Origin: Cinqassovirus ah1
Taxonomy: Duplodnaviria > Heunggongvirae > Uroviricota > Caudoviricetes > Straboviridae
Virus record (IMG/VR): IMGVR_UViG_2974724611_000001
Coordinates: 76,650 to 140,649 of that record
DNA: 64,000 bases
Strand: one strand, 5' to 3'
Position 1 is the first letter of the stretch. Every line of letters starts with the position of its first letter. This document shows, piece after piece, positions 7,951 to 26,212 of the stretch. Both the position numbers and the translations under genes were made by a program. The notes below the pieces were generated by a model, which was not told where the DNA came from, did not search any database, and saw only the letters and a program-made list of their open reading frames with translations.

Positions 7951-7973
7951 AAAAGGCACCCGAAGGTGCCTTA
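7951..7973 (-). terminator. Intrinsic terminator
   Basis: AAGGCACC-TTCG-GGTGCCTT hairpin followed by T-run on minus strand. Confidence 0.75.
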
Positions 7974-8322: not shown

Positions 8323-8444
8323 TGGCGGAGAAGGTGGGATTCGAACCCACGACCAACAGTTTGATTTTGCAAGGGTTTGCGGTAAAGAATCTTAATCAGA
8401 TTCCGCTTTTTGCGACTACTGCTCTACCACTGAGCTACTTCCCC
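8323..8444 (-). ncRNA. tRNA-bodied RNA with about 50-nt insert replacing the anticodon arm (CCGCAA module)
   Basis: GGGGAAG/CTTCTCC acceptor with GCCA end, canonical D arm GCTCAGTGGTAGAGC and T arm GTGGGTTCGAATCCCAC; 122 nt. Confidence 0.8.
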
Positions 8445-8460
8445 AAATTTTTAACAACAC

Positions 8461-8583
8461 TATGCTGGCGGTCTGGGCCTCGAACCCAGATTACAGGCTT
8501 AACAGGCGAGTATTTATTGCGGAAAACATTCTTATCAGAATGAATTTTACAGTGTCCTACCAATTAGACGAACCGCCAGCATA
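8461..8583 (-). ncRNA. tRNA-bodied RNA with CCGCAA-module insert and Asn-like anticodon loop
   Basis: TGGCGGT/ACCGCCA acceptor, D arm GTCTAATTGGTAGGAC, T arm CTGGGTTCGAGGCCCAG; no encoded CCA. Confidence 0.75.
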
Positions 8584-8589
8584 ATGTTG

Positions 8590-8719
8590 TTTGTTGTAGC
8601 GATACTGGATTCGAACCAGTGACGTTTCTCGATGTGCCCACACTTAACGGAATCGAACCGTTCTCGATACTTCTCTGCGATCAGAGGCGTTCTCCCGCTG
8701 AACTAATCGCGACAACAAA
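8590..8719 (-). ncRNA. tRNA-like RNA with two T arms
   Basis: Val-like 5' half (GCGATTAGTTCAGCGGGAGAAC); T arms AACGGTTCGATTCCGTT and ACTGGTTCGAATCCAGT. Confidence 0.7.
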
Positions 8720-9152: not shown

Positions 9153-9232
9153 TAGCAGTATAGGTATTAGGAAACAGCAGTTTAGCCAGATATTTCATAC
9201 TCATGATAACTTCCTCTTAGTTAATGTCGCCA

Positions 9233-9577
9233 TTATAATGACTCTGGATTACCAGTCAAGAAAAAATACGCGATTGCGATCAAAATTTTACACACAATAT
9301 GAAGTGCTTGATCTTGATGTAATCCAATCTTGCTGTTGCACTTAGCATAATCGATGATCCAATGACTCACAAGCTCTGCCAAACTAAGCCAAACGCTCTT
9401 GGTTGCAACGTATACCACAAGCGCATGAGTAGCACTATGAGCAGTTAGCCAGTAGAACCAATGCACCCCATAGAGCGGAGAATTGATTGGATTCTTACCA
9501 CGAGCAATACTATCGGATTGCAGAACATAATCGGCCACAAAATGGCCGATTATGAGAATATACAGAATTTCAAACAT
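9233..9577 (-). CDS. DUF3307-family membrane protein
   Basis: GHFVADYVLQ, HSATH, SHWIIDYAK, DQALH motifs. Confidence 0.8.
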   Translation of the reverse strand: MFEILYILIIGHFVADYVLQSDSIARGKNPINSPLYGVHWFYWLTAHSATHALVVYVATKSVWLSLAELVSHWIIDYAKCNSKIGLHQDQALHIVCKILIAIAYFFLTGNPESL

Positions 9578-10802: not shown

Positions 10803-12239
10803 TTAGAAATCGATACCGACGTAACGGTCGCTCATGATCTTGTCGAGCATGATTTGCATCGGGTTAAACTCTTTCGCACTCAGGATTGTCTCCATGATTG
10901 CAGGACTAAAACCAGAAACAAGAGCAGTGCCTTGATCATCTTTGGTCACCGGATTGTTAGTCGGGCGCGGGCAAAGATTCCAGAACACCAGTTTCGGCAT
11001 TTCGTAACCAGCGTCGCGGTAAGTCTGACGAATCACCTCAAAGTTGGTAGGCTCACGGTCACGCATACGATAGTAACCACTATAGCCACCATCAGCAACG
11101 TTGAATTCCATGTCAGACAAGACAACCAACATAGTCGGCATATCTTCTTGCGGAACTCGATTGCGTACAGCGCGATCAAGAATGATCTTGAATGCACCAG
11201 CAAAGTTGGTAGAGCCACCCCACGGAGCGCGTCTCAGATGATTCACCATGCTTTGAAGATCGTCGCCTTTCTCTTTGATGTTGTAGAACTCAGGATTATC
11301 ATCGAAGGTAATCACTTCGTTCCGGAACACACCGCGCGAACGTTCGCCGATGTACAGACCCAGAGAAATCGCGATGTCCATAGCAGACAAGCCAGCAACA
11401 GCGGTCGGAGTGCTCATAGAGCCGGAAACGTCAACCATTGCGATTACGTTTTCAGTAGAGCCAGCCATCCAGTCGCGTTGTGCTTTCCACTGTGCATCAG
11501 CAGCAACGGAAGAACCAGTACGCAGGGATTTGATCATGTCATACGGATAAACCGCAGCAGCGTTGATCTTAGCCTCACCCTTTTTCAAGGACTCAAGGTA
11601 AGCAACATAATGCTCATTCGCGTTTTTCAGGAATGCTTTCTGATAACGAGCAGAAGCAACAGACGGCAGTTTATCGAACTCAATACCGTCCCACTGACGA
11701 GCACACATCTTTTGTTCAACGGTGTTCGACATACGGACGATAGTGTGACGATATTCTTTAGCAGTCATTCGCATAGCTTTGGCCAGAATACCGGCTTCTT
11801 TGCCCTTTCGAGGTGCCCACTTTGCAGCAAGACCGTTTTGCTTGGTCATGATTGCATCAACCATGATAGCCACAGCAGCGTCCTGAATCGGAGAATTGAA
11901 CATTGCTACCACGTCTTTGAAGCGACCGATTTCAGGAGTGTTCATCAGAACTACGGTGGCGTCAACAGGGTGACGATGCGCAAGGACTTTCAGCAGGCGG
12001 ATGAATTGTTCACGTTCACCGGCACCACCGCGAATATCGCGAGCCCATTGCAGAATGCGAACAGCCCAGTCAGGAGACTCGGTATAAGCATCAACAAACA
12101 TCTGAGTCAGATCTTTCCCGCGAGAGGAACCAATCTGAGAAAACAGATTCAGACACTTGTCGCCAGTGGTGTAGTTAGTGACAGCACCGTTAGCAGTGCG
12201 GGTTTGAGCTTGTACCATTGCATTCATAAAATTAGACAC
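10803..12239 (-). CDS. Ro60/TROVE-related protein with C-terminal vWA domain (DUF2828 type)
   Basis: GTG start at 12239 after GAGG RBS; WARDIRGGAGER, LAAKWAPRK, TVEQKMC, INAAAVYPYD; vWA MIDAS DVSGSM...T...SDMEF. Confidence 0.85.
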   Translation of the reverse strand: MSNFMNAMVQAQTRTANGAVTNYTTGDKCLNLFSQIGSSRGKDLTQMFVDAYTESPDWAVRILQWARDIRGGAGEREQFIRLLKVLAHRHPVDATVVLMNTPEIGRFKDVVAMFNSPIQDAAVAIMVDAIMTKQNGLAAKWAPRKGKEAGILAKAMRMTAKEYRHTIVRMSNTVEQKMCARQWDGIEFDKLPSVASARYQKAFLKNANEHYVAYLESLKKGEAKINAAAVYPYDMIKSLRTGSSVAADAQWKAQRDWMAGSTENVIAMVDVSGSMSTPTAVAGLSAMDIAISLGLYIGERSRGVFRNEVITFDDNPEFYNIKEKGDDLQSMVNHLRRAPWGGSTNFAGAFKIILDRAVRNRVPQEDMPTMLVVLSDMEFNVADGGYSGYYRMRDREPTNFEVIRQTYRDAGYEMPKLVFWNLCPRPTNNPVTKDDQGTALVSGFSPAIMETILSAKEFNPMQIMLDKIMSDRYVGIDF

Positions 12240-16505: not shown

Positions 16506-16580
16506 TGGTGGCCCCGAGCGGACTCGAACCGCTTTTCTTCGCTTATGAGGCGAGCACATTTACCATTATGTTACGGGGCC
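16506..16580 (-). tRNA. tRNA with CAT anticodon (Ile2-like or Met)
   Basis: GGCCCCG acceptor, loop CTCATAA, CCA encoded. Confidence 0.85.
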
Positions 16581-16622
16581 GTTTGTTTATAGGAACCATT
16601 ATTACACAGTTCCTAATGATAG

Positions 16623-17009
16623 TCAACCTTTAAGATTCAATTTGTATCTAATCGAAGTCAAAAACGTCATGATATCTTCCAGTGCATTCACCAGATCGAA
16701 ATGTCGTTTAGTCTCCAAATACTCATGCACCATAGTACACTCTTGCAGGAAATTGTCAATCAACATTTCAACTTCAACTTCCGCATGAGTAGCAGTAAAG
16801 CTCTGAGCATATCCACGAGCGATAGCGTATTCTGCAAAGCTATCAATCAGCTCTGGAAGTTCTTCGTAATACGCTTGGAGCGCTTTGTGACGGCTATAGA
16901 TAGTAGTAGTCAGGTGTTGGTGATGAACGTATGCCACGCTTTTCAGAAGCTTGGAAATTAGTTCGCCAACACTTGAGTTTGTATCACCTTTGAAATCTTT
17001 GAAACTCAT
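16623..17009 (-). CDS. Ferritin/Dps-like four-helix protein
   Basis: HHQH...RHKAL..YYEELPELIDSFAE pattern; MSFKDF N-terminus. Confidence 0.6.
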   Translation of the reverse strand: MSFKDFKGDTNSSVGELISKLLKSVAYVHHQHLTTTIYSRHKALQAYYEELPELIDSFAEYAIARGYAQSFTATHAEVEVEMLIDNFLQECTMVHEYLETKRHFDLVNALEDIMTFLTSIRYKLNLKG

Positions 17010-17055
17010 ATTATACTCCTAATGAAAAAGGGAGCCGAAGCTCCCTTTATTTATC

Positions 17056-17133
17056 TGGTGCGCCAACTCGGACTCGAACCGAGAAACAACTGATTCTAAA
17101 TCAGCTAGGTAGACCAATTCCCATCATTGACGC
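17056..17133 (-). tRNA. tRNA-Leu(TAG), short variable arm
   Basis: Cloverleaf, loop TTTAGAA, CCA. Confidence 0.85.
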
Positions 17134-17139
17134 ATTGTT

Positions 17140-17227
17140 TGGAGGAGAAAGTGGGATTCGAACCCACGGACCCTTGCGGGCCTACGAATTAGCAATCCGA
17201 TACGTTCGGCCTCTCTGTCATTTCTCC
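17140..17227 (-). tRNA. tRNA-Ser(GCT)
   Basis: Cloverleaf with long variable arm, CCA. Confidence 0.9.
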
Positions 17228-17337
17228 GTATTCTTTGATGTATTCGGCAACTCGTTTAATCTGTTCCCATTGAGAATCAGTAACACGCTGACCGGATAAC
17301 ACGAACGAGGCTCTTACATTTTCCTCGATCTCTTTCT

Positions 17338-17559
17338 TTAAGCTTTGCAATAGTGAGTGCCTCTTCGAACAAAACCACCAAAATCTTTCTGACCAATGCA
17401 GTGAACACCGCGAGTAACTTTAATCAGTCCAAGCTTTAGCAGCTTTTCGATTTGTTGATTGGTACATCTGGCATCACCTTGAGTAGTAGCGAAACCGTAT
17501 GAATCAGCTTTATCAGCGAAACGGGATGCCAGCTCAAGATCTTGTTTTGTTGCTTTCAT
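17338..17559 (-). CDS. Hypothetical protein (may continue across an indel)
   Basis: GAGAG RBS, start MKATKQ. Confidence 0.5.
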   Translation of the reverse strand: MKATKQDLELASRFADKADSYGFATTQGDARCTNQQIEKLLKLGLIKVTRGVHCIGQKDFGGFVRRGTHYCKA

Positions 17560-17583
17560 GATATAACTCTCTATTGTTTGATT

Positions 17584-17678
17584 TGGCGGAAGCGATCCGA
17601 TTCGAACGGATGGACGAGGGGATACCTCGCCGTCAGTTTTCAAGACTGGTGCAATAAGCCGGACTCTGCCACGCTTCC
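17584..17678 (-). tRNA. tRNA-Ser(TGA)
   Basis: Cloverleaf with long variable arm, CCA. Confidence 0.9.
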
Positions 17679-17818
17679 AAATTCTTCGACACGGCTTTAT
17701 GTCGTCATGACTCTTGAACATTACGTTCTGGCTACATACGCGCATCACCTTCCCGTTTGATAATTTAACGAGTTACGGGAATCATAGCAGCTCATTTTTA
17801 GCCTTTGCAAGCTAAATT

Positions 17819-17894
17819 TGGCGGGGGTAACTGGGCTCGAACCAGTGCATGACGGAATCAAAGTCCGTTGCCTTACCAACTTGGCTATACCCCT
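17819..17894 (-). tRNA. tRNA-Gln(TTG)
   Basis: Cloverleaf, unpaired 1:72, CCA. Confidence 0.9.
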
Positions 17895-17906
17895 ATAAAC
17901 TGGGAC

Positions 17907-17989
17907 GAATATGAACGTTTAACGTGGATCATCGTCTTATCTTTCGGACAACGTATTTCTACGGCCTACTAAGGTAACTCCACATATTC
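17907..17989 (-). ncRNA. Putative structured RNA
   Basis: GAATATG/CATATTC closing stem with internal hairpins; no ORF. Confidence 0.45.
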
Positions 17990-18182
17990 AAACGATGCAA
18001 CGCTTGAATCAATTCAAAGAACTCTATATTAGAATACTTTGAAATGATCCACAAGTGAATCACTCGCCCCTTAAATCGCATCACCGATCAAATCGGGAGA
18101 GGGAATTTTCAGCTGGACTTCTAACAAAGTTTCCTAGGACATCGTTAGCATTCTCTTTAACAGGCCTTTGCAGGCAACTCTG

Positions 18183-18256
<74 letters not shown>

Positions 18257-18271
18257 AATATTCTTATAAAA

Positions 18272-18379
18272 TGGGGCGCTAAGGTAGAGAATCGAACTCT
18301 ACATGAAATCAATACCGACGGGGCAATCTATATCCCGACTTTCGAGAAGCTATCTCATTGCACTTAAAAGCATTAGCGA
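18272..18379 (-). ncRNA. tRNA-like RNA (acceptor, T arm and CCA with atypical core)
   Basis: CGCTAA/TTAGCG stem, T arm TAGAGTTCGATTCTCTA, CCA. Confidence 0.65.
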
Positions 18380-18403
18380 TTTCACCTTTCAAAGCGATTA
18401 AAC

Positions 18404-18479
18404 TGGTGCGCCGAACTGGAATCGAACCAGTGACCAACGGAATTTCAACCCGTCACTCTACCTGCTGAGTTATCGACGC
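18404..18479 (-). tRNA. tRNA-Phe(GAA)
   Basis: Cloverleaf, CCA. Confidence 0.9.
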
Positions 18480-18489
18480 AAAATTTGTG

Positions 18490-18562
18490 GGTGACGGACG
18501 GGCTTCGAACCCGTGACTACCAGGATCACAACCTGGAGTTCTACCAACTGAACTACCGCCAC
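18490..18562 (-). tRNA. tRNA-His(GTG)
   Basis: Cloverleaf, C73. Confidence 0.9.
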
Positions 18563-18643
18563 ATAAATGATCACTCGAAAGAAAGCATTTATGTAACGAG
18601 TTACACACCAGATGCTACAAACGGGGCATCTGGATCCCTCTTA

Positions 18644-18728
18644 TGGTGCTCGGCACAAGATTCGAACTTGCGATGCCTTTCGGTCTGGATTACAAAACCA
18701 GTGCATTCAACCACTCTGCCAACCGAGC
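18644..18728 (-). tRNA. tRNA-Thr(TGT) on a class-II-like (long variable arm) body
   Basis: Loop TTTGTAA in CTGGT/TCCAG stem; G1:C72, C2:G71; 13-nt variable arm; CCA. Confidence 0.7.
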
Positions 18729-18737
18729 GTTTTAAAT

Positions 18738-18829
18738 TGGTGGATGCGGTAGGATTCGAACCTACAACGTTTACCCTGTGGGGCCAGATTTACAGTCTGG
18801 TGCAATACCACCGTCATTGCAGCACATCC
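18738..18829 (-). tRNA. tRNA-Tyr(GTA)
   Basis: Cloverleaf with long variable arm, CCA. Confidence 0.9.
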
Positions 18830-18854
18830 ATTATTCGTTATTTAGTACGCTAAG

Positions 18855-18928
18855 AAGCGAGTACCTGATTCGAACAGGTGATCTCTGGGATATGAGCCCA
18901 GCGAGGACGGCCTCTCCTCCAACTCGCA
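18855..18928 (-). tRNA. Initiator-type tRNA-fMet(CAT), CCA not encoded
   Basis: GGG/CCC anticodon stem, 1:72 mismatch. Confidence 0.8.
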
Positions 18929-18948
18929 TCTTAGCGCACTAATCAATT

Positions 18949-19024
18949 TGGTTCTCCGTATGGAATTCGAATCCATGTTACCGCCGTGAAAGGGCAGTGT
19001 CCTAGTCCACTAGACGAACGGAGA
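18949..19024 (-). tRNA. tRNA-Glu(TTC)
   Basis: Cloverleaf, CCA. Confidence 0.9.
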
Positions 19025-19028
19025 TCTG

Positions 19029-19268
19029 TCAGTAAGCGAAACTAAACAATCGTCTTTGTTTTGCTTTTAAGTCTTCTTCGACAACAGGAACATTATCACA
19101 TGTTTCCGCAGTAGAGTAAACATCTTTTTGTTTTTCTTTTTCAGCGGCTTCCGCAGCTTTCTTTCTAGCAAGTGGACCAACGTTTTTCCACAAAGGCGCG
19201 TTGTACCATGCTGCACTACATTGATTCGCTGAGCCACGATTGGCACGAGCGTCTAAATCATTACTCAT
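19029..19268 (-). CDS. Hypothetical late protein
   Basis: GGAG RBS, CTAAATA at 19296-19302. Confidence 0.6.
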   Translation of the reverse strand: MSNDLDARANRGSANQCSAAWYNAPLWKNVGPLARKKAAEAAEKEKQKDVYSTAETCDNVPVVEEDLKAKQRRLFSFAY

Positions 19269-19305
19269 TTACTAACTCCGTCTAAATTACAACAGTATTT
19301 AGTAA

Positions 19306-19443
19306 CCAAATTTAAATGCACTGTCGCGATCCCCGTAGGTGGTTCCCACCTACTAGCCTTTGTTCGCACAAGCTTGCGGCTCTTAGCTACATACGAGGGC
19401 TTATCTCGTCCCATTTAGGTTAGGGCAATGCACTTAAATTTGG
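19306..19443 (-). ncRNA. Structured ncRNA of about 138 nt
   Basis: 18-bp closing stem CCAAATTTAAGTGCATTG/CAGTGCATTTAAATTTGG with multibranch interior. Confidence 0.65.
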
Positions 19444-19514
19444 TGGAGACGGCGGGATTTCCACCCGTATCTCAGATCCCAGTGACCTGCGATTATGAAG
19501 TTATCTACGTCCCC
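19441..19514 (-). ncRNA. tmRNA-TLD-like mini RNA with G3.U70 and ACCA
   Basis: GGGGACG/CGTCTCC-A-CCA; reduced D stem; 5-nt loop where the anticodon would be. Confidence 0.65.
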
Positions 19515-19561
19515 GAGAAGGCTTAAACGTAACGAGTCAGAGGTTTAAGCGCGATTGAATT

Positions 19562-19636
19562 TGGTGGTGCATAGTAGATTTGAACTACTGACCGACGGCG
19601 TATGAAACCGCAGCTCTACCACTGAGCTAATGCACC
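19562..19636 (-). tRNA. tRNA-Met(CAT), elongator type
   Basis: Cloverleaf, CCA. Confidence 0.85.
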
Positions 19637-19828
19637 AGACGGTATCAAGAGTCGATACCGAGGCAATAATATTGATTTAACTCATACTACCGCTATATAG
19701 GCCGCAGTATAAGAAGCGCGTTGGTGTCAATAGTAACGTTTAAGTTATTCGCCCCACACAACAATCACCGCTTTTTATAGCCTATCGCCACGCAATAAGC
19801 AATCTACCTATTGATTGACTCGACTATT

Positions 19829-19905
19829 TGGTGAGTCGCCCGAGATTCGAACTCGGGACCTTCTGATTAAAAGTCAGATATTCTATCCAACTGAATTAGC
19901 GACTC
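19829..19905 (-). tRNA. tRNA-Lys(TTT)
   Basis: Cloverleaf, CCA. Confidence 0.9.
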
Positions 19906-19911
19906 ATTGTT

Positions 19912-19986
19912 TGGCAGGGCGCGGGAGACTCGAACTCACATCGCGCGGTTTTGGAGACCGGCATAATACCGTTATACTAACGCCCT
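19912..19986 (-). tRNA. tRNA-Trp(CCA)
   Basis: Cloverleaf, loop CTCCAAA, CCA. Confidence 0.9.
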
Positions 19987-20165
19987 AGAATTCTTACCAG
20001 CTATCAAAATCTGTAATAGGAACGCTCTTTGCGCCTTCTTTGACAGCTTTCGCACTTACTACAGTACCGATTGAACCGCTTTGATATTCAATGTTTCGTG
20101 CATCTGCATGAGTTCCATCATACGCTGTAATTCGGTAACTGAAAATCTTACAATCATTTTTGCAC

Positions 20166-20366
20166 CTACACAATAGGACTTTCGATTATGACGTCAAGAA
20201 CGGAATAATACGTGCTGTATTCCGAACTCATATCATCGTAATATGCGCGAACTTTGCTTTCGGCATCGTCTACGTCTTCCGCTTCTACCAACTTAATGGT
20301 ATCGAATGACTTAGAGGAACCCATGTATTCGCTTTTCATATAACGTATCTTAGCAAGAAACATCAT
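20166..20366 (-). CDS. Hypothetical protein
   Basis: 66-aa ORF. Confidence 0.55.
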   Translation of the reverse strand: MMFLAKIRYMKSEYMGSSKSFDTIKLVEAEDVDDAESKVRAYYDDMSSEYSTYYSVLDVIIESPIV

Positions 20367-20375
20367 CGTTGTAAA

Positions 20376-20765
20376 CTACCTTTTAGCCGCTAGTTTGAAA
20401 TATTCGCTGTTCGGTACCGACATCGGTTGAACACCAGTTAACTCAAGAGCTATTAAACTCGGCATAGCTTTGAGGATAAGAGGCATCTGTATCTTATCAG
20501 GCAACGGACGCTTTTCAAGTTTGATTTTTCGAATCTCTTGCCACTGATTCCGTTCTTCGCAGGCTTTCAGTAGCTCAAGTTCTAAGTCATTGCTATAGTT
20601 AACACCATACGCGATTACGCTATCAAATTCAACTGGATTTTGATCAACATACTCGATGATCTGCCGTAAAGTTTCGACGTCATCTTGAAACCAACCGCAG
20701 TTGATAAAACAATTTCCGACACAATCGCCGTTCTTCATGAACAGCGCATAACTAGGTGCGCTCAT
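20376..20765 (-). CDS. Small protein ending in a gp23 major-capsid-like motif
   Basis: C-terminal LILKAMPSLIALELTGVQPMSVP resembles T4 gp23 VRRAIPNLIAFDICGVQPMNSP. Confidence 0.65.
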   Translation of the reverse strand: MSAPSYALFMKNGDCVGNCFINCGWFQDDVETLRQIIEYVDQNPVEFDSVIAYGVNYSNDLELELLKACEERNQWQEIRKIKLEKRPLPDKIQMPLILKAMPSLIALELTGVQPMSVPNSEYFKLAAKR

Positions 20766-20780
20766 ATTTTATTTCTCATT

Positions 20781-20855
20781 TGGAGTACCGAGTCTGGTTC
20801 GAACAGACGATAAAGTGATTTGCAATCACTTGCCTTACCTCTTGGCTATCGGCAC
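20781..20855 (-). tRNA. tRNA-Cys(GCA)
   Basis: Cloverleaf, U73, CCA. Confidence 0.9.
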
Positions 20856-20862
20856 GTTAATC

Positions 20863-20935
20863 TGGAGCGAGTGAGGAGAATCGAACTCCCTATCTACGGC
20901 TTGGAAGGCCGAGCGCGTACCTTACGCACACTCGC
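20863..20935 (-). tRNA. tRNA-Gly(TCC)
   Basis: Cloverleaf, CCA. Confidence 0.9.
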
Positions 20936-21554
20936 TTTTACAACTTTTTATGTGTTTGATCATTCCACCAGTTTTCTTACCGGTTCTACCGCATTTTGGA
21001 CACGATATAATTGGTCTATTATCTGGTGCGTTTTTGACCGACTCTGAAATTTTTCTTCTAGTTTCTTCACTTTTTGGCAAACTGGCAATTTTAGCAAGTT
21101 TCTCGAAGTGAAGTTTAGCATTTTCTGGATCTTTACGAACCCAGCTATTACTTCGTATTTTATTTTTGGATTCTTCCGAATGTCGGAATTTACTAGCCAT
21201 TTCACTTAATATTTTCTTGGTTTCTTCTGTGTGATGTTTACCGTGAAATTTCGAAACAGCTCCAGAGTTTATCCAATCCCACCCGCCTTCTCCACCAATC
21301 TTCAAATTGTATGTATCATCGCGGCCTACAAAATCACTGTCAACAATTTCACGTTCTTTGAGATACATTTCTTCCTTTGTCTGGAATTCGTAAAGTATCT
21401 CCTTTTTGAAGTTATCAATCCCGTATTTGGAAATAGATAGTTTCAAATGTTTACCGGAGCCCATATACCCATCATTTTCATCTGATGTCTTATGTGCGCC
21501 TATGTAGAATTTGCCGTTTATTTTGTTGGTGATTTTATAAATTAAGTATTTCAT
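20922..21554 (-). CDS. GIY-YIG homing endonuclease with NUMOD3 repeats (SegB-like position in the tRNA cluster)
   Basis: LIYKITNKINGKFYIGAH, YNLKIGGEGG, HGKHHTEETKK. Confidence 0.9.
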   Translation of the reverse strand: MKYLIYKITNKINGKFYIGAHKTSDENDGYMGSGKHLKLSISKYGIDNFKKEILYEFQTKEEMYLKEREIVDSDFVGRDDTYNLKIGGEGGWDWINSGAVSKFHGKHHTEETKKILSEMASKFRHSEESKNKIRSNSWVRKDPENAKLHFEKLAKIASLPKSEETRRKISESVKNAPDNRPIISCPKCGRTGKKTGGMIKHIKSCKSECA

Positions 21555-21611
21555 CGGAACTCCAAAAAAGGAATACCGAGCGCCTCACGGCGTGTCATTA
21601 AATCAAAAATT

Positions 21612-21685
21612 TGGTGGAGCACGGGGACTCGAACCCCGGATCTCTGCGTGCAAAGCAGAAGTGTTCCCAATTATACCATGACCCC
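21612..21685 (-). tRNA. tRNA-Ala(TGC)
   Basis: G3.U70, loop TTTGCAC, CCA; 3' acceptor strand one base short (probable sequence error). Confidence 0.85.
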
Positions 21686-21694
21686 AAATTCTAA

Positions 21695-21870
21695 TAGATA
21701 CTCGAAAGTATACATTAGAATAGGCACTTTATGCAAGTACCTACGCAAGTCTTCGGATTCACATACGGGAGTGGTGACTAACCCACGTTACTTTTACCTG
21801 CTGTTCCCTCTCAGCCGCACATCCAACTACCGAAGCAAAGGAGTGCTATCTTTTAATAGTAGATTTGAAG
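21695..21870 (-). ncRNA. Putative multibranch structured RNA
   Basis: Nested pairings GCACT/AGTGC, CTTCGG/CCGAAG, GTGCGG/CCGTAT; no convincing ORF. Confidence 0.45.
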
Positions 21871-21960
21871 TTTTGTATTGGTTGCAGAAGTGAATCCATA
21901 CATTTTCAAAGAGCATTGAACTACTGTCGGGTAAGTTCATTTTTCCTACTAGGTAGAAAC

Positions 21961-22037
21961 TGGCAGTGACGACGGGGCTCGAACCCGCGCTCTCCGACGT
22001 GACAGGCCGGAATTTTAACCAACTAAACTACGTCACT
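21961..22037 (-). tRNA. tRNA-Asp(GTC)
   Basis: Cloverleaf, CCA. Confidence 0.9.
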
Positions 22038-22043
22038 AGAAAC

Positions 22044-22118
22044 TGGTAGCCATGGGCAGGCTTGAACTGCCGACCCCACCCTTATCAGGGGTGTGCTCTA
22101 CCACTGAGCTACATGGCT
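22044..22118 (-). tRNA. tRNA-Ile(GAT)
   Basis: Cloverleaf, CCA. Confidence 0.9.
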
Positions 22119-22123
22119 ATAAA

Positions 22124-22231
22124 CTGGAAGACTTTTAACTGCCACCTGGACTCTTGTGCTAGAGAGTTGAGGAATCGAACCTCACCGTTTTCTTAACAAT
22201 AGAAAATTCGAATGGTTTGCTGAAATCTTCC
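22124..22231 (-). ncRNA. CAGCAA-motif RNA A, circularly permuted tRNA-like (YrlA-like)
   Basis: GGAAGATTT/AAGTCTTCC terminal stem, CAGCAA, anticodon-like hairpin, T arm TGAGGTTCGATTCCTCA, loop-closed stem ACTCT/AGAGT. Confidence 0.7.
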
Positions 22232-22254
22232 GTAGCACGGTAAATTGTTATTTG

Positions 22255-22328
22255 CGGAGGAGACCGGACTCGAACCGGTGACCTGTCGCTTAACAGGCGA
22301 ATGCTCTAACCAACTGAGCTACACCTCC
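22255..22328 (-). tRNA. tRNA-Asn(GTT), CCA not encoded
   Basis: Cloverleaf, loop CTGTTAA. Confidence 0.9.
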
Positions 22329-22356
22329 CAAATAACAACTCTAATCAATAAGAAAC

Positions 22357-22418
22357 GGAATGAACTTTTAGGCTATTTCAATATAATGGCTTTTTAAGTT
22401 GGTTGCTGAACTCATTCC
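22357..22418 (-). ncRNA. CAGCAA-motif RNA B
   Basis: GGAATGAGTT-CAGCAA...AAAAGTTCATTCC; starts just downstream of promoter 22430-22458. Confidence 0.65.
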
Positions 22419-22429
22419 TATCTTTGTTT

Positions 22430-22458
22430 ACTATACACTACTATTTAGTGACTGTAAA
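22430..22458 (-). promoter_or_regulatory. Early promoter with embedded late box
   Basis: TTTACA-17-TATAGT with CTAAATA (22442-22448) in the spacer. Confidence 0.75.
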
Positions 22459-22479
22459 CAAAGCTTCTTAAATTTTTGA

Positions 22480-22534
22480 CAGGCTCACTTTTGTTTTTCA
22501 TCCGCAGAAAAGTTTTGATTGCTGAACGGAGCCT
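22480..22534 (-). ncRNA. CAGCAA-motif RNA C
   Basis: AGGCTCCGTT-CAGCAA...TTTTC-TGCGGAT-GAAAA...AAAAGTGAGCCT. Confidence 0.65.
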
Positions 22535-22541
22535 TATAAAG

Positions 22542-22570
22542 ATTGTATCACGTTTTATCAACGCTGTAAA
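22542..22570 (-). promoter_or_regulatory. Early promoter
   Basis: TTTACA-17-TACAAT, 7 nt upstream of RNA C. Confidence 0.75.
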
Positions 22571-22609
22571 CTATCTTTTATTTATGCTCTACTTTAAGAG
22601 CATGTGATA

Positions 22610-22638
22610 ATGATAGCACAGTGTTTTAATAGAGTAAA
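22610..22638 (-). promoter_or_regulatory. Early promoter
   Basis: TTTACT-17-TATCAT. Confidence 0.7.
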
Positions 22639-22907
22639 CAATCTTTTTCTCGATATCCCACACATTGTTTCATGCTACTGCCGGTTGAGTCCGAAGACCG
22701 AATAAGGGTTCACTTCCACGTTAGGTTTACGGCATACCGAGAAAAAGACAGTCCGCATCACAGTGTTAGCGCAAGGGGTTCCACTGTCACTAAGTTATTT
22801 AGTGTCTACTGTCAACCAGCTAGGTGGGCGCTGGTCCCGTCCATACGAGCATGATGCCACCAATACATGCTCGGAAAGATCTTACGGTTTTTCAAATCTC
22901 GAAATCT

Positions 22908-23132
22908 TTACTTGTCGTAATAATATGGCTTGCATTGACCTTCGAACTTGGTTTGACCACCGAACAATCCAACGCGATTCTCGCCATATGTATCTTGTGC
23001 ATTTTCCTCCGCGACTTTCAGCGCGGCTCTGCATTCTGCTTCGGTGTCGAACTTCTCAATTGTATGGCTATGTGAGCCATAATTGGTACCAAAGTTAACG
23101 AACAACGAAGTAATCAACAAGAACTTAATCAT
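22908..23132 (-). CDS. Small exported protein
   Basis: Hydrophobic N-terminus, two Cys. Confidence 0.55.
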   Translation of the reverse strand: MIKFLLITSLFVNFGTNYGSHSHTIEKFDTEAECRAALKVAEENAQDTYGENRVGLFGGQTKFEGQCKPYYYDK

Positions 23133-23157
23133 AACATCACCTATTGGCATTGTAAAC

Positions 23158-23445
23158 TTATTTAGTATCGCAGGAATACACTTCTTTCACGCGAGTTACA
23201 GAACGTTTGGTAACGTTAATGGAGCTACCCTGATACCAGCGAGACTCAGAGTCCAGCACTTTGTCAACAACTGCCTCAGACTTAGGCAGAATCACATCAA
23301 AGCAGGTTTGTCCCATTTTGTCTTTCATGTGCGACCAGATAGACAGCGAGAAACGTTCGAGTTTGTTACAGACTTTTACCTTGCACATTTCTTCGGACTG
23401 AGCGCCGAAAGATAACAGCGCGAGCAGAATTACGGCAGCTTTCAT
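23158..23445 (-). CDS. Small exported protein
   Basis: Signal peptide, four Cys. Confidence 0.65.
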   Translation of the reverse strand: MKAAVILLALLSFGAQSEEMCKVKVCNKLERFSLSIWSHMKDKMGQTCFDVILPKSEAVVDKVLDSESRWYQGSSINVTKRSVTRVKEVYSCDTK

Positions 23446-23747
23446 TCTTCAATCTCCACAACTCGATTTGTTTTTACAAGATGATCCCACAGCTTTTGAT
23501 AAGAGATTGAATAATCTTCTTTATCGTTGCAGCAAGAACAGCCTTGTTCATAGTAAACGGTGATCCAGTTCATGTCAAGCTTATAGCCACATCCGTAGAA
23601 ATGACGACTACCGTGACTGGGTTTACCCAGCTCATAGTTTACGACCTCTTCCAGTGCGGTATCAATACCGTCAGAATCGATGAAGTCTTCCGCCGCGTCT
23701 TGCTTACGCAAAGCGTCCATAAAGTCAAACAGATTATCAATGTTCAT
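23442..23747 (-). CDS. Hypothetical protein
   Basis: Coupled ORF. Confidence 0.6.
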   Translation of the reverse strand: MNIDNLFDFMDALRKQDAAEDFIDSDGIDTALEEVVNYELGKPSHGSRHFYGCGYKLDMNWITVYYEQGCSCCNDKEDYSISYQKLWDHLVKTNRVVEIEE

Positions 23748-23749
23748 GA

Positions 23750-23926
23750 TTATTTCTCACAATTAACACACATATAAAAAGGCATTGATGCTGCAACGGC
23801 ACCACTAATGGTAAGACCATACGGGAGAAAATTGCCACATTTGCATTTTGATTGCTTTCGATAGTTGACTTTCTCAACAGAACGAATCATAACACGGCAC
23901 AACGATTGAAGCAAGAACTTATTCAT
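23750..23926 (-). CDS. Small Cys-rich protein
   Basis: GAGG RBS; CKC...CVNC. Confidence 0.5.
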   Translation of the reverse strand: MNKFLLQSLCRVMIRSVEKVNYRKQSKCKCGNFLPYGLTISGAVAASMPFYMCVNCEK

Positions 23927-24022
23927 TTTATTTTCCTCATTAGCCATAGTAATACGTTATCGCATTAATATGGCGGCTCTTTCGAGCCACCTTTTAGAAA
24001 TCGGGCCATTCGTCTCTCACGA

Positions 24023-25132
24023 TTAGACCCCCCCCTTGAACTCCACGATATTTGAAATCTCGTTGAACTCACCGTACTTCTGCATTGACGGAACAATGTT
24101 GCCATTCTCGTCATGAATCAGATCTGGATTTTCTTTCCAGCTACCGACTGGATACATGTATTCTGACACAGCATCCGAATTCAAGTCAACAACTAATTTC
24201 GGACTGATTTTTAGTGGGTATTCGCGAGTCTGATCATTCTCAGCACCAGCTACCACAATTCGAGTCATCAGATCGGCATGATACAGATGATCGTTGTCCT
24301 GACTGCCGTATTGTTGTGGGTTAAACTCGATGATGAGTTCACACAACATGCTAACAAACTTACGGAGTCCGATATGCAGATCTGCATTAGCAGCGGTGAG
24401 TTTAATAACAAGGTTTGTCAAGTTGTTTTTAGAGTAAGGACCCATTCCTACATTGACAACGCTATCATATTCCCAGGAGAAACCCATACTGAGATATTCA
24501 TTGAACAGATCCTTTCTCAGTTCATCACGAATGATCTCTGGCTCCTTCTCGATTTCTTCCAGTCTAAAAGTGAGTTCTTCTTTAGTCAAGCGTTTTTTAT
24601 CTGGATCACGAATTGCAAGCCTGGCGAAAGTATCGCGGATCTCTTTATGCGACTTGATAGCGTAGTCTTTGTTCCATGATTGTTCCAATTTGCGGTCATA
24701 TTCTGCTACCATCAGATCATAGACTTTCCGCTTGATTACCATGAACATAACTGGAGATTTCTTTGCACCGCTGAATGAGAAAGCTGGCTGAATATACAAA
24801 GCTTCTTCGTGCATCAAGTCCTGATATGACAGCTTTTTCGGATCGAATAGATCATCAATGTTAACATTACGTTCTTCGTCACAAACGATATAAGTCTTTA
24901 CCATGTCTTGGAACGCTTGGTATGCGTCGTTATCTTCGATCTCGAAGTTACCATAGTCATCATATGTCGCATACATCGGAAGATGCATAGCGAGCTGGTA
25001 TCGATCCCAGTTATAGCAACCAGGTGCGGCTGGAATAGTTTCTCCGTTACAAACGAGTGCCAGCAGAACAACCGGTTCGCCACATGTAACGATATGACGA
25101 CTAACGCCACAAATAGTATTGAAAGAACCCAC
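24023..25132 (-). CDS. Hypothetical protein (369 aa)
   Basis: Long ORF with RBS. Confidence 0.75.
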   Translation of the reverse strand: MGSFNTICGVSRHIVTCGEPVVLLALVCNGETIPAAPGCYNWDRYQLAMHLPMYATYDDYGNFEIEDNDAYQAFQDMVKTYIVCDEERNVNIDDLFDPKKLSYQDLMHEEALYIQPAFSFSGAKKSPVMFMVIKRKVYDLMVAEYDRKLEQSWNKDYAIKSHKEIRDTFARLAIRDPDKKRLTKEELTFRLEEIEKEPEIIRDELRKDLFNEYLSMGFSWEYDSVVNVGMGPYSKNNLTNLVIKLTAANADLHIGLRKFVSMLCELIIEFNPQQYGSQDNDHLYHADLMTRIVVAGAENDQTREYPLKISPKLVVDLNSDAVSEYMYPVGSWKENPDLIHDENGNIVPSMQKYGEFNEISNIVEFKGGV

Positions 25133-25187
25133 GTAATTTTCCCTTGATTAGGTTACAAAAAAGCCCCAGTTAAGGGGCTTATGATAA

Positions 25188-25577
25188 TTAAGCGATAGCT
25201 TCCAGAACAGCTTCCAGAGATTCTTCGATCATGACGCGATTCGGTACGTCATACTCGGAAGTGCGGAAACTCAGAAGAACTTCACCGTGAATGTTCTCAT
25301 GCAGACCAACGATCTTGTCGGCACCAACTACGAACTTCGCAATGCCACGATGTTCAACCGGAGTAACAACAGCGCGTTTGATGTAGCAATCTTTCAGTTT
25401 CAGCGCCAGATCTTCGAAACGCTCGGCAACAGTATACACAGTCGGCAGTTGACCGTCAACTTTTACAGTCAGCAGAGTCTTACCAGAATGCAGCTTTACC
25501 AGACCAACAACTTTCTCGGAGTTGACTACGAAACGGGTGATTTTACCAGCTACAGGGGATACAACAAAACGGGACAT
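25188..25577 (-). CDS. Hypothetical protein with two-fold internal repeat
   Basis: SPV..ITRFVVNSEKVVGL and TPV..IAKFVVGADKIVGL. Confidence 0.7.
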   Translation of the reverse strand: MSRFVVSPVAGKITRFVVNSEKVVGLVKLHSGKTLLTVKVDGQLPTVYTVAERFEDLALKLKDCYIKRAVVTPVEHRGIAKFVVGADKIVGLHENIHGEVLLSFRTSEYDVPNRVMIEESLEAVLEAIA

Positions 25578-25586
25578 TTTAGTTCC

Positions 25587-25823
25587 TTAAACAGTGATAG
25601 AAAATACATGCTGGTCATTCTCAATGATTCCAGCGTTGTTGTCAACGAAAATTTCAAAATTCATTTCCTTTGACGCTTCGATGTGAGCTTTCGCAGCTTC
25701 TAATGCCACTACACTCGGGTATTCCGAACGATTTCCAGCGAAAATACAGATGCCGTTTAGACCATAAACACGTCCACTAAAGCTTCCGTCTTCATCTTGG
25801 TCCAGTATACAGACAAGTTTCAA
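25587..25823 (-). CDS. Hypothetical protein
   Basis: GAGG RBS before TTG start. Confidence 0.5.
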   Translation of the reverse strand: MKLVCILDQDEDGSFSGRVYGLNGICIFAGNRSEYPSVVALEAAKAHIEASKEMNFEIFVDNNAGIIENDQHVFSITV

Positions 25824-25843
25824 CGTGTCAACCTCTTTTCGTT

Positions 25844-25928
25844 TGGTGGGGATAGTGGGACTCGAACCCACACGTCCGAAGACTTGGGATTTTAAATCCC
25901 CCGCGGCTACCGATTACGCCATATCCCC
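25844..25928 (-). tRNA. tRNA-Leu(TAA)
   Basis: Cloverleaf with long variable arm, CCA. Confidence 0.9.
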
Positions 25929-25933
25929 GAATT

Positions 25934-26018
25934 TGGTGGGAATAGTGGGAGTCGAACCCACACGACTTTCGTCAACAAGGTTTGAGCTTGTCCTGTATGC
26001 CTGTTCCAGCATATTCCC
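25934..26018 (-). tRNA. tRNA-Leu(CAA)
   Basis: Cloverleaf with long variable arm, CCA. Confidence 0.9.
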
Positions 26019-26110: not shown

Positions 26111-26212
26111 CCGAGGATACTGGATTCGAACCAGTGACCCACTGCTTCTTCTGTACTCTCGTTGGAAAGCACAGGAGAAGGCAGTTGTTCTATCCCACTG
26201 AACTAATCCCCG
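26111..26212 (-). ncRNA. Val-like tRNA with anticodon loop expanded into a long hairpin
   Basis: Intact acceptor, D and T arms; ACTGC/GCAGT stem encloses 35 nt. Confidence 0.75.

What the first reader, a model, noticed from the sequence alone, without database searches (positions are those of the whole stretch)
8323..8583. tRNA chimeras with the CAGCAA-type module grafted into the anticodon arm
Seen: two adjacent tRNA bodies with normal D and T arms. In place of the anticodon arm they carry the same module in permuted order (AAAAAGC-GGAATCT-loop-AGATTCT-TTA-CCGCAA; AAAATT-CATTCT-loop-AGAATG-TTTT-CCGCAA) followed by an anticodon-like loop. The second has TCGCCTGTTAAGC, identical to the anticodon arm of the Asn tRNA at 22255. 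The first has G3.U70 and an encoded CCA. Inference: these are non-translating, possibly aminoacylatable tRNA decoys, and the permutation shows the module works as a unit.
Basis: partly seen in the sequence, partly recalled or inferred. Interest (0 to 1): 0.75.

Follow-up and report, generated by a model that had tools for sequence, protein, structure and literature searches.

The report
tRNA-shaped partner RNAs of phage Ro60-like protein
Two oversized "tRNA" genes in this T4-like Aeromonas phage are probably not decoders or broken genes but tRNA-shaped small RNAs whose anticodon region carries a conserved docking hairpin, and that hairpin travels with the gene for a Ro60-like ring protein in many very different phages.

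Summary
On the minus strand lie element B (8578-8463) and element C (8444-8323). Both have intact acceptor, D and T arms and share one module: an A-run, a 6-7 bp hairpin, a U-run, then CCGCAA. Nine related Aeromonas phages from three genera keep both elements, with compensatory changes in the stems, so they are not decaying pseudogenes.

C has no conserved anticodon. B keeps an invariant Asn-like loop behind a 42-nt insert.

The same module, with the helix open at the RNA ends instead of capped by a loop, marks three small RNAs at 22126-22534. It also marks small RNAs directly beside homologues of the window's DUF2828 protein (10803-12239) in distant phages. There, (TT|TA)CNGCAA is about 8.6-fold enriched on the gene's strand within 400 nt, in 63 of 80 loci.

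The DUF2828 protein models as a full-length Ro60 fold (TROVE ring plus vWA).

Best reading: B and C are Y-RNA-like partners of this protein in natural tRNA topology, with an open acceptor end (CCA encoded in C) and a sealed docking helix. That is the reverse of YrlA. No binding or function was tested. G3:U70 is not conserved, so a conserved alanine-charging role is unsupported.

Earlier follow-up reports of this scan reached the same reading on related phage genomes.

The parts
8323..8444 (-). Element C: 122-nt tRNA-shaped RNA. It has a 7-bp acceptor stem (G3:U70 here), a D arm, a 5-bp anticodon-stem remnant (8419-8415 with 8360-8356), the module, a T arm, G73 and an encoded CCA (8325-8323).
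   Evidence: Rfam tRNA 54.3 bits with a 53-nt insert. Conserved in 9 phages with compensatory changes. Scores 115.6 bits with model R1, of which it is a training sequence.
8377..8411 (-). Module ('handle') of C: A-run 8411-8407, hairpin 8404-8386 (7-bp stem, 5-nt loop), UUA, then CCGCAA at 8382-8377.
   Evidence: The hairpin pairs in 100% of 11 aligned sequences; 3 of 6 pairs change on both sides and the 3 loop-proximal pairs are invariant.
8463..8578 (-). Element B: 116-nt tRNA-shaped RNA. It has a 7-bp acceptor stem (extendable to 9 bp with 8580-8579), U8, a 4-bp D stem, the module, an Asn-like arm, a T arm and G73. CCA is not encoded.
   Evidence: Strict cloverleaf scan. Alignments. T-stem compensation among relatives.
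8517..8548 (-). Module of B: A-run plus UU 8548-8543, hairpin 8542-8527 (6 bp, GAUA loop), UUUU, then CCGCAA at 8522-8517.
8494..8510 (-). Asn-like anticodon arm of B: loop CUGUUAA with a stem of 3 standard pairs and 2 mismatches. The 13-mer at 8509-8497 is identical to the arm of the phage's own tRNA-Asn.
   Evidence: 2 matches, 0.06 expected. The loop and its flanks are invariant in 9 phages.
10803..12239 (-). Gene for the DUF2828 + DUF7788/vWA protein, predicted to have the Ro60 fold (TROVE-like ring plus vWA). It is the proposed protein partner. It lies 2.2 kb upstream of B and C on the same strand.
   Evidence: Pfam. AlphaFold model with pLDDT 83.5. The top 13 Foldseek PDB hits are all Ro60, aligned over the full length, E 8e-9 to 5e-6.
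22126..22231 (-). Open-ended ('T-type') handle RNA with a YrlA-like permuted tRNA body: T arm, closed acceptor-like hairpin, D-like segment.
22357..22418 (-). Short open-ended handle RNA: 8-bp terminal stem, UU, CAGCAA ... AAAAG.
22481..22534 (-). Short open-ended handle RNA, directly behind a GTTTAC-17-TACAAT-type promoter-like site.
   Evidence: Its handle aligns to the Rfam Class I RNA consensus at 17.1 bits, below the cut-off.
9232..9259 (-). Sigma-70-like promoter (TTGACT-16-TATAAT, 11 of 12 matches) that could drive ORF 9152-8733, elements A, B and C, and the rI.1 homologue as one transcript.
   Evidence: Consensus match only.
7953..7972 (-). Terminator-like hairpin downstream of the rI.1 homologue; a likely end of that transcript.
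   Evidence: Consensus match only.

Best explanation
B and C are stable, non-decoding, tRNA-shaped small RNAs. They act as partner (Y-RNA-like) RNAs of the phage's Ro60-like DUF2828 protein.

Each has a complete tRNA top half, so it is probably cut out of a polycistronic early transcript by the tRNA-processing enzymes (RNase P at the 5' end, trimming or CCA addition at the 3' end).

Where the anticodon arm should end, each carries the family's docking 'handle': a short helix flanked by an A-run on one strand and by UU(A)-CNGCAA on the other. In most family members this helix is formed by the RNA's own 5' and 3' ends. In B and C it is sealed by a G..A loop and the acceptor stem is open instead. 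They are therefore exact circular permutations of the YrlA-type layout.

The handle would dock the Ro60-like ring. The tRNA body would serve as the adaptor face toward tRNA-binding enzymes, nucleases or repair factors; in B this includes an Asn-type anticodon loop plus G73.

Shown: anatomy, conservation, covariation, the protein's predicted fold, and the genomic linkage of handle and gene.

Inferred: binding, processing and downstream function.
For: 1. Conservation. All three tandem tRNA-like elements are kept in 9 Aeromonas phages of three genera at 84-98% identity. There are compensatory changes in the T, D, acceptor and module stems. On the 11-sequence alignment 91.5% of cells pair, against 72% in shuffles, and 15 of 22 pairs change on both sides.

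2. No conserved anticodon in C. Putative anticodon triplets differ among close relatives, and GenBank calls the same gene Val, Leu or 'OTHER'.

3. Same handle, opposite closure. It occurs on three small RNAs in the window.

4. Linkage to the gene. In 80 viral loci encoding 41-48% identical DUF2828 proteins, (TT|TA)CNGCAA occurs at 1.73/kb on the gene's strand within 400 nt of the gene. The opposite strand has 0.13/kb and the rest of the loci 0.20/kb. 63 of 80 loci show it, and scrambled control hexamers are not enriched. Stem-plus-handle RNAs number 46, against 7-11 in shuffles.

5. The handle follows the gene, not tRNA clusters. Three CAGCAA RNAs lie directly downstream of the 'Ro-like RNA binding protein' gene of mycobacteriophage AvadaKedavra, which has no tRNA gene within 4 kb. 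Three lie upstream of the gene in Listeria phage WIL-1. The T4 tRNA region has none.

6. Loop-capped, tRNA-topology members also occur beside DUF2828 genes in distant phages: L018 (a tandem pair, both with CCA), L031 and L096. Model R1 scores these at 85-118 bits and ordinary tRNAs at 46 bits or less. The second L018 copy, at 85.4 bits, was not in the training set.

7. Protein fold. The model (pLDDT 83.5) matches Ro60 structures over its full length, with TM 0.35-0.62 across the 13 Ro60 hits (0.45-0.62 apart from Deinococcus Rsr); the 13 best PDB hits are all Ro60.

8. Co-occurrence. In the phage collection the same number of records (11) hold B/C and a DUF2828 homologue of at least 80% identity.

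9. Precedent. Ro60 proteins bind tRNA-like Y RNAs encoded beside them, with a short conserved motif next to the terminal stem (PMC4201824; PMC12135203).
Against: - No binding, expression or processing data exist. The link is genomic only.
- B and C lie 2.2 kb from the gene, not adjacent to it.
- The handle (CNGCAA) differs from the GNCGAA/CGAA motif of known Y RNAs.
- The Rfam YrlA model scores only about 16 bits here, against a cut-off of 69.
- Felixounavirus JLBYU28 has a DUF2828 gene but no CAGCAA RNA beside it, so the pairing is not universal.
- B, without its 42-nt insert, would be a nearly normal tRNA-Asn(GUU). An undescribed excision pathway cannot be excluded for B.
- R1 was trained on B and C, so their own scores are not independent.
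Confidence: 0.62

Rival explanations
1. They are intron-containing tRNA genes. The 42-54-nt insert is removed and the halves are joined, for example by a nuclease plus the T4-type kinase and ligase repair enzymes, to give working tRNAs: Asn from B and something else from C.
For: B minus 8552-8511 is a 74-nt cloverleaf with a CUGUUAA loop, G73 and a 4-nt variable loop. L018's second copy keeps a good Gly(UCC)-like anticodon hairpin after the module. ARAGORN finds no tRNA-Arg or tRNA-Val in the window. GenBank annotators called C an intron-bearing tRNA.
Against: C has no conserved U33-containing 7-nt loop, and its candidate anticodons vary among close relatives. The insert is far too small for a group I or II intron, and Rfam finds no intron or ribozyme family in it. 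The insert is itself the most conserved, covarying part, and it is shared with RNAs that are not tRNAs at all. B's anticodon stem has two mismatches, and a normal tRNA-Asn with the same arm already exists at 22254-22328. No bacterial or phage splicing pathway is known for an insert at position 26/27 (established knowledge).
Confidence: 0.1
2. They are free-standing tRNA decoys, independent of the Ro60-like protein. They would soak up host anticodon nucleases, tRNA-modifying enzymes or synthetases, with the module only stabilising the RNA.
For: B's Asn-type loop with its flanks is invariant in 9 phages and identical to the phage tRNA-Asn arm. B also has G73, which together with the anticodon is the known Asn identity set (established knowledge). 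C in this phage has G3:U70 and CCA. tRNA-targeting defences are common (literature listed).
Against: This idea does not explain why the module is tied to the DUF2828 gene across phyla. It also does not explain why the module appears on RNAs of about 55 nt with no tRNA features. C has no conserved anticodon-like loop, and G3:U70 is not conserved. The two ideas are not exclusive: a Ro-bound RNA could still present a decoy face.
Confidence: 0.15
3. They are tRNA pseudogenes disrupted by insertion of a small mobile or regulatory hairpin (for example a terminator or processing signal) and have no function of their own.
For: The A-run, hairpin, U-run layout superficially resembles a weak bidirectional terminator. 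Nolan et al. 2006 list three tRNAscan 'pseudo' tRNAs in Aeh1.
Against: Compensatory changes keep every stem in three phage genera. Similar elements sit beside DUF2828 genes in phages whose proteins are only 41-48% identical. The hairpin is AT-rich and only 6-7 bp, so the terminator scan does not call it. In the open-ended relatives the U-run and A-run flank a terminal stem, which is not a terminator geometry.
Confidence: 0.05

Closest known systems
YrlA-type Y RNAs with Ro60/Rsr (Rfam RF02553; Chen et al. 2014, PMC4201824; YrlA structure preprint 10.1101/312249)
   Same: Both are tRNA-like small RNAs (D arm, T arm, acceptor-like stem) carrying a separate protein-docking helix where the anticodon stem continues. 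Both have a short conserved single-stranded motif right next to that helix. Both are encoded near a Ro60-fold protein on the same strand. The strand order of the motif relative to the tRNA body is the same once the permutation is undone.
   Different: YrlA has its 5' and 3' ends in the docking helix, a loop-sealed acceptor stem and no CCA. B and C have an open acceptor stem (CCA encoded in C) and a loop-sealed docking helix. The motif is CNGCAA, not GNCGAA. The protein is DUF2828, not a Pfam TROVE family member. The Rfam YrlA model scores about 16 bits against a cut-off of 69.
Thermus phage phiLo Ro60 with Yrl1/Yrl2 (PMC12135203; PDB 9KOP, 9L5Y)
   Same: A phage-encoded Ro60-fold protein with partner RNAs encoded beside the gene. 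The phiLo structures are among the best structural matches of the window's protein.
   Different: The phiLo RNAs are stem-bulge-stem RNAs with a CGAA motif and open ends. They have no complete tRNA body with an acceptor end.
Bas63 gp130 (PhageMaP preprint 10.1101/2024.10.10.617714)
   Same: A Ro60-like phage protein encoded directly upstream of a tRNA array. The authors guess that some annotated tRNAs may be Y RNAs, and they report the gene as a counter to the Ppl defence system.
   Different: No RNA was identified there. The Felixounavirus I looked at (JLBYU28) has no CAGCAA handle next to the gene. I did not verify that gp130 is the DUF2828 homologue.
Phage T4 stable RNAs rnaC and rnaD (species 1 and 2)
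   Same: Stable RNAs of unknown function in the tRNA cluster of a T4-type phage. rnaC has a T arm and an acceptor-like stem.
   Different: Neither carries the handle motif, I saw no sequence similarity, and T4 is not among the DUF2828 hits listed.
Dictyostelid Class I RNAs (Rfam RF01414; PMC7919456)
   Same: A short stem joins the 5' and 3' ends, followed on the 5' side by a conserved 11-nt motif whose Rfam consensus ends in UUACAGCAA. That is the layout and motif of the open-ended handle RNAs (alignments; description).
   Different: They are eukaryotic, about 60 nt long and have no tRNA body. The phage RNAs score 17.1 bits against a cut-off of 41.5. B and C are the loop-capped form. I did not test whether dictyostelids have the protein.

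Membership tests
Canonical decoding tRNA | 7-bp acceptor stem, D arm, and T arm with a UUCGA-type loop | tested here: met
   C: Rfam tRNA 54.3 bits. B and C: strict cloverleaf scan. Covariation.
Canonical decoding tRNA | 5-bp anticodon stem closing a 7-nt loop with U33 and a conserved anticodon, contiguous with the D arm | tested here: not met
   C has no such loop, and its candidate triplets differ among relatives. B has the loop, but its stem has 2 mismatches and a 42-nt module separates it from the D arm. ARAGORN calls neither.
Intron-containing tRNA (group I intron, or bulge-helix-bulge intron) | Insert with a group I core, or a bulge-helix-bulge motif at the exon-intron junctions, whose removal gives a canonical tRNA | tested here: not met
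   The insert is 42-54 nt and Rfam finds no intron or ribozyme family in it. Removal gives no canonical anticodon arm in C. I did not search specifically for a bulge-helix-bulge motif.
YrlA (Rfam RF02553) | Score at or above the family's gathering cut-off (69 bits) | tested here: not met
   15.4-16 bits here, arising from the neighbouring T and D arms of B and C. No hit at the cut-off in 14 distant loci.
YrlA (Rfam RF02553) | Permuted order (T arm, loop-closed acceptor stem, D arm) with the RNA ends in the Ro-binding stem and no CCA end | tested here: not met
   B and C have the natural tRNA order and an open acceptor stem. C encodes CCA, and the docking helix is loop-closed. The window's RNA at 22126-22231 does have the permuted order.
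YrlA (Rfam RF02553) | GNCGAAN0-1G motif next to the terminal stem (PMC4201824) | tested here: not met
   The motif here is UU(A)-CNGCAA.
Y RNA in the broad sense (partner RNA of a Ro60-fold protein) | Encoded near a Ro60-fold protein gene | tested here: met
   The DUF2828 protein has the Ro60 fold. B and C lie 2.2 kb downstream on the same strand. In distant phages the handle clusters within 400 nt of the gene.
Y RNA in the broad sense (partner RNA of a Ro60-fold protein) | Physical binding to the Ro60-fold protein | not testable with these tools
   Needs RIP/CLIP or EMSA.
DUF2828-linked CAGCAA-handle RNAs (working family, defined here and in earlier notes of this scan) | Helix flanked by an A-run 5' of one strand and UU(A)-CNGCAA 3' of the other | tested here: met
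   B 8548-8517 and C 8411-8377. Hairpin pairs in 100% of sequences, with covariation.
DUF2828-linked CAGCAA-handle RNAs (working family, defined here and in earlier notes of this scan) | Same genome and same strand as a DUF2828 gene | tested here: met
   all five handle RNAs of the 221-kb genome are on the gene's strand.
Dictyostelid Class I RNA (RF01414) | Score at or above the gathering cut-off (41.5 bits); terminal 6-bp stem plus the 11-nt motif | tested here: not met
   17.1 bits on the open-ended RNAs. B and C lack a terminal handle stem.
Alanine-accepting tRNA mimic | Conserved G3:U70 in the acceptor stem | tested here: not met
   Of the six sequences in the alignment, G3:U70 is in this window only and Aeh1 and PX29 have G3:C70; the other three rows were cut short at that column. 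Counting the 3' strand in the nine-phage alignment, U70 is in this window and avDM12-TAAL only, C70 in the other seven. L018 and L096 have A3:U70.

The most novel reading that the evidence does not exclude
Phages have built a second, undescribed branch of the Ro60/Y-RNA particle (DUF2828 protein plus CAGCAA-handle RNAs). Some of its RNAs are complete tRNAs in natural topology with a free CCA end, and in B-type members an authentic anticodon loop. These could be processed, CCA-tagged and even aminoacylated like tRNAs while carrying a Ro60-like ring. That would physically couple an RNA-surveillance protein to the tRNA machinery (synthetases, EF-Tu, anticodon nucleases or repair ligases) as a counter-defence device.
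Probability: 0.12. Interest if true: 0.9.

Novelty: new variant of a known kind. Interest (0 to 1): 0.72.

Why it matters
Ro60 and its Y RNAs are an old puzzle. The known bacterial Y RNAs look like circularly permuted tRNAs with a sealed acceptor end, and nobody knows what the tRNA-like face does.

Here the same design appears un-permuted: an open acceptor end (with CCA encoded in C) and a sealed docking helix. It sits on a different Ro60-fold protein family that 708 phage records carry, with a different handle motif.

This has three consequences:
- It corrects the annotation of 'tRNA-Val', 'tRNA-Leu', 'tRNA-OTHER' or pseudo-tRNA genes in these phages.
- It gives a sequence rule for finding the partner RNAs.
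- It offers a tractable lytic-phage system for asking what a tRNA-shaped adaptor on a Ro ring is for. One preprint already links a Ro60-like phage protein to escape from a defence system.

Tried and rejected
- A crude regex for hairpin plus CNGCAA in the window gave mostly chance hits. The bare 9-mer is not enriched window-wide: 15 found against 11 expected.
- A relaxed stem-plus-motif scan has a high background, about 130 of 198 hits. Only its distance distribution was informative, so I replaced it with the assumption-free k-mer count.
- Rfam found no YrlA, Class I RNA or other family at its cut-off on B/C, on the window, or on 14 distant loci.
- blastn in 'distant' mode found B and C only in the Aeh1-like group. 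More distant members needed structure-aware scans.
- phmmer against PDB sequences gave nothing for the protein. Only the fold comparison did.
- A MotA box, a late promoter (the AAUAAAUA stretch in B) and a terminator were considered for the module. I dropped them because the motif is on the RNA-sense strand of conserved structured RNAs and the terminator scan does not call it.
- I tested whether B-type anticodon arms copy the phage's own tRNA in L018 and L031. They do not. The 13-mer identity is specific to this phage group.
- The literature search for DUF2828 gave only unrelated plant and tardigrade papers. One review (PMC10870794) is not held.

Full report
**What is there**

The window is part of a 221-kb T4-like Aeromonas phage. 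Its closest relatives are avDM12-TAAL at 98% identity, Aeh1 at 91%, PX29 and the AsFcp phages at about 90%, and phiAS5 and phiWae14 at about 84%.

Three tRNA-like elements lie in tandem on the minus strand, between ORF 9152-8733 and an rI.1 homologue at 8267-7989:
- A, 8712-8599
- B, 8578-8463
- C, 8444-8323

The finding concerns B and C.

Element C scores 54.3 bits with the Rfam tRNA model, with a 53-nt insert in the anticodon region. Element B passes a strict cloverleaf scan: 7/7 acceptor pairs, a 4-bp D stem and 5/5 T-stem pairs. ARAGORN finds 23 ordinary tRNAs in the window but neither B nor C.

**The module**

Both elements carry an A-run, a 6-7 bp hairpin whose three loop-proximal pairs and G..A loop ends are fixed, a U-run, and then CCGCAA. 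The module is at 8548-8517 in B and 8411-8377 in C.

In C the module sits inside a 5-bp remnant of the anticodon stem. In relatives this remnant changes only in ways that keep or improve pairing.

In B the module lies between the D arm and an Asn-like arm. A 13-mer of that arm is identical to the arm of the phage's own tRNA-Asn: 2 matches against 0.06 expected. The stem of this arm has two mismatches.

C has G3:U70, G73 and an encoded CCA. B has G73 and no encoded CCA.

**Conservation**

An alignment of nine phages from three genera keeps A, B and C, with compensatory changes in the T stems, in A's acceptor stem and tetraloop hairpin, in C's D stem and in C's module hairpin.

I then aligned B and C from four phages with three distant elements, 11 sequences in all:
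- 91.5% of cells pair, against 72% in shuffles and 58% or less when the partner columns are slid.
- 15 of 22 pairs change on both sides.
- The module hairpin pairs in every sequence.

These are therefore not decaying pseudogenes.

What is not conserved matters as much:
- C's anticodon-like loop differs between close relatives.
- The triplet that tRNAscan-type tools take as the anticodon also differs. GenBank calls the same gene tRNA-Val(CAC) in Aeh1 and a joined tRNA-Leu in PX29; it is not annotated in phiWae14, where the only tRNA called in this stretch (tRNA-Ala) overlies element A.
- G3:U70 occurs only in this phage and avDM12-TAAL; the others have G3:C70.

By contrast, B's Asn-type loop with its flanks is invariant across all nine.

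**Where the module leads**

I tested both leads.

*The protein.* ORF 12239-10803 (minus strand) matches Pfam DUF2828, DUF7788 and vWA. Sequence search against PDB finds nothing. An AlphaFold model built on 25 homologues has a mean pLDDT of 83.5. It matches Ro60 structures over its full length: the 13 best Foldseek hits are all Ro60 (Xenopus, human, Deinococcus Rsr, Thermus phage phiLo), with E values from 8e-9 to 5e-6 and TM scores of 0.35-0.62 (0.45-0.62 apart from Deinococcus Rsr). Only isolated vWA domains follow.

The family is in 708 phage records. Some mycobacteriophage records already label it 'Ro-like RNA binding protein'.

*The other RNAs.* On the same strand at 22126-22534 the window has three small RNAs. 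Their terminal stem is followed by UU-CAGCAA on the 5' side and preceded by AAAAG on the 3' side. One of them, at 22126-22231, has the YrlA-like order: T arm, closed acceptor-like hairpin, D-like segment.

Read around the circle, B's module equals the two ends of such an RNA joined by a four-base loop. Terminal stems in distant phages even share the AGAAU.../...AUUCU sequence with the hairpins of B and C.

The motif also has the same place relative to the tRNA body in both forms. It precedes the 3' strand of the anticodon stem, and the A-run follows the 5' strand. B and C are therefore the un-permuted form of the same design.

**Linkage to the gene**

I fetched 80 viral contigs encoding DUF2828 proteins 41-48% identical to this one.

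| Measure | Result |
|---|---|
| Stem-handle RNAs (strict pattern) | 46, against 7-11 in shuffles; mostly on the gene's strand and directly next to the gene |
| (TT\|TA)CNGCAA within 400 nt of the gene, gene's strand | 1.73/kb |
| Same motif, opposite strand | 0.13/kb |
| Same motif, rest of the loci | 0.20/kb |
| Loci showing the near-gene motif | 63 of 80 |
| Scrambled control hexamers | not enriched |

The handle follows the gene and not the tRNA clusters:
- Mycobacteriophage AvadaKedavra has three CAGCAA RNAs right after the gene and no tRNA within 4 kb.
- Listeria phage WIL-1 has three just before the gene.
- The T4 tRNA region has none.

The pairing is not universal. A Felixounavirus has the gene without this handle beside it.

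**Capped, tRNA-topology members elsewhere**

A cloverleaf scan and a covariance model find the same architecture beside DUF2828 genes in three distant contigs:
- L018: a tandem pair behind its own promoter-like site, both ending in CCA. The second copy was not used for training and scores 85.4 bits.
- L031: one copy.
- L096: one copy, inside a tRNA array, ending in CCA.

Ordinary tRNAs score 46 bits or less with this model.

L018's second copy shares B's D arm and keeps a Gly(UCC)-like anticodon hairpin after the module. By eye, L031 has a loop of the same N-U-NNN-A-A form. There are thus two sub-types: C-like with no anticodon loop, and B-like with one.

**How it most likely works**

A strong sigma-70-like promoter at 9259-9232 and a terminator-like hairpin at 7972-7953 suggest one transcript spanning the ORF, A, B, C and the rI.1 homologue (consensus matches only). 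Excision would then depend on the tRNA-like ends; this step is inferred.

I propose that the handle docks the Ro60-like ring and that the tRNA body is the adaptor face. This follows known Ro60 systems, in which Y RNAs tether or gate the ring (PMC4201824, PMC12135203).

What the adaptor recruits is unknown. Three observations make tRNA damage, tRNA repair or counter-defence the most plausible area:
- The gene's company in other phages, such as an RtcB-type ligase 1.3 kb away in the Listeria phage.
- Its position beside tRNA arrays.
- A preprint reporting a Ro60-like phage protein as a counter to a defence system.

**Comparison with what is known**

[quoted passage not shown] Its motif is GNCGAA. 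B and C reverse the first two features and differ in the third.

They fail the Rfam YrlA cut-off. I therefore do not file them as YrlA. I file them as a new variant of the Ro60/Y-RNA kind.

I found no paper describing DUF2828-linked CAGCAA RNAs.

The open-ended handle closely resembles the stem plus 11-nt motif of dictyostelid Class I RNAs. Both alignments score 17.1 bits, below that family's cut-off. This lead came from earlier notes of this scan and I only partly checked it.

**Earlier notes of this scan**

After I had done these tests, look-ups showed that follow-up agents had reached the same reading for the homologous pair in related Aeromonas phages, and for the protein-RNA pairing in many other phages. 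I count these as agreement, not as evidence.

**Limits**

Everything about binding, processing, charging and function is inference. For B, excision of the insert to give a tRNA-Asn cannot be excluded in silico.

Noticed in passing
window 8599-8712 (-): Element A is a third tandem tRNA-like RNA. It has a 7-bp acceptor stem (compensated T-A to A-T in phiWae14 and phiAS5), a D arm, a covarying 5-bp hairpin with a 4-nt loop in place of the anticodon arm, and a long extra region that holds a second complete T-arm-like hairpin. It has no CNGCAA handle and is conserved in all 9 relatives.
   Followed up: partly
window 26111-26212 (-): A tRNA-like RNA (Rfam tRNA 53.7 bits) whose anticodon arm is a continuous long hairpin with no anticodon loop. 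Its fold z-score is -3.5 and it has no handle motif.
   Followed up: no
window 16506-26018 (-): ARAGORN finds 23 tRNAs covering 18 amino acids. No tRNA-Arg or tRNA-Val is called in the window.
   Followed up: no
L018:12150-12235 (+): Directly after the tandem capped pair lies a third RNA. A 5-bp terminal stem is followed by UACAGCAA, and the 3' strand is preceded by a T arm and followed by ..CCA. It appears to be a hybrid between the open-ended handle and an acceptor/T minihelix.
   Followed up: no
L100:6850-8061 (Listeria phage WIL-1): The DUF2828 gene lies 1.3 kb upstream of an annotated tRNA-splicing (RtcB-type) ligase, with an HD-domain protein and a NADAR-domain protein nearby. This is an RNA-repair neighbourhood like the bacterial rsr-rtcB operons.
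   Followed up: no
L098:5404-5569 (Escherichia phage JLBYU28, Felixounavirus): The DUF2828 gene sits directly upstream of a 20-tRNA array. The short gap after the gene holds a promoter-like site and an RNA with an ACGAA motif, not CAGCAA. A 30-codon ORF is annotated on the opposite strand there.
   Followed up: no
L077:13732-14223 (+): A viral contig with a DUF2828 gene and two handle RNAs also encodes a full tmRNA (Rfam 85.5 bits) 2.3 kb downstream.
   Followed up: no
window 21878-21889 and 22399-22410 (-): The motif UUC(A/U)GCAACCAA recurs in the tRNA cluster. The copy at 21889 has no obvious terminal stem in my scans.
   Followed up: no
L001, L002, L003 (GenBank records of Aeh1, PX29, phiWae14): The same three elements are annotated inconsistently across records: tRNA-Val(CAC), a joined tRNA-Leu, tRNA-OTHER, tRNA-Ala, or nothing.
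   Followed up: yes
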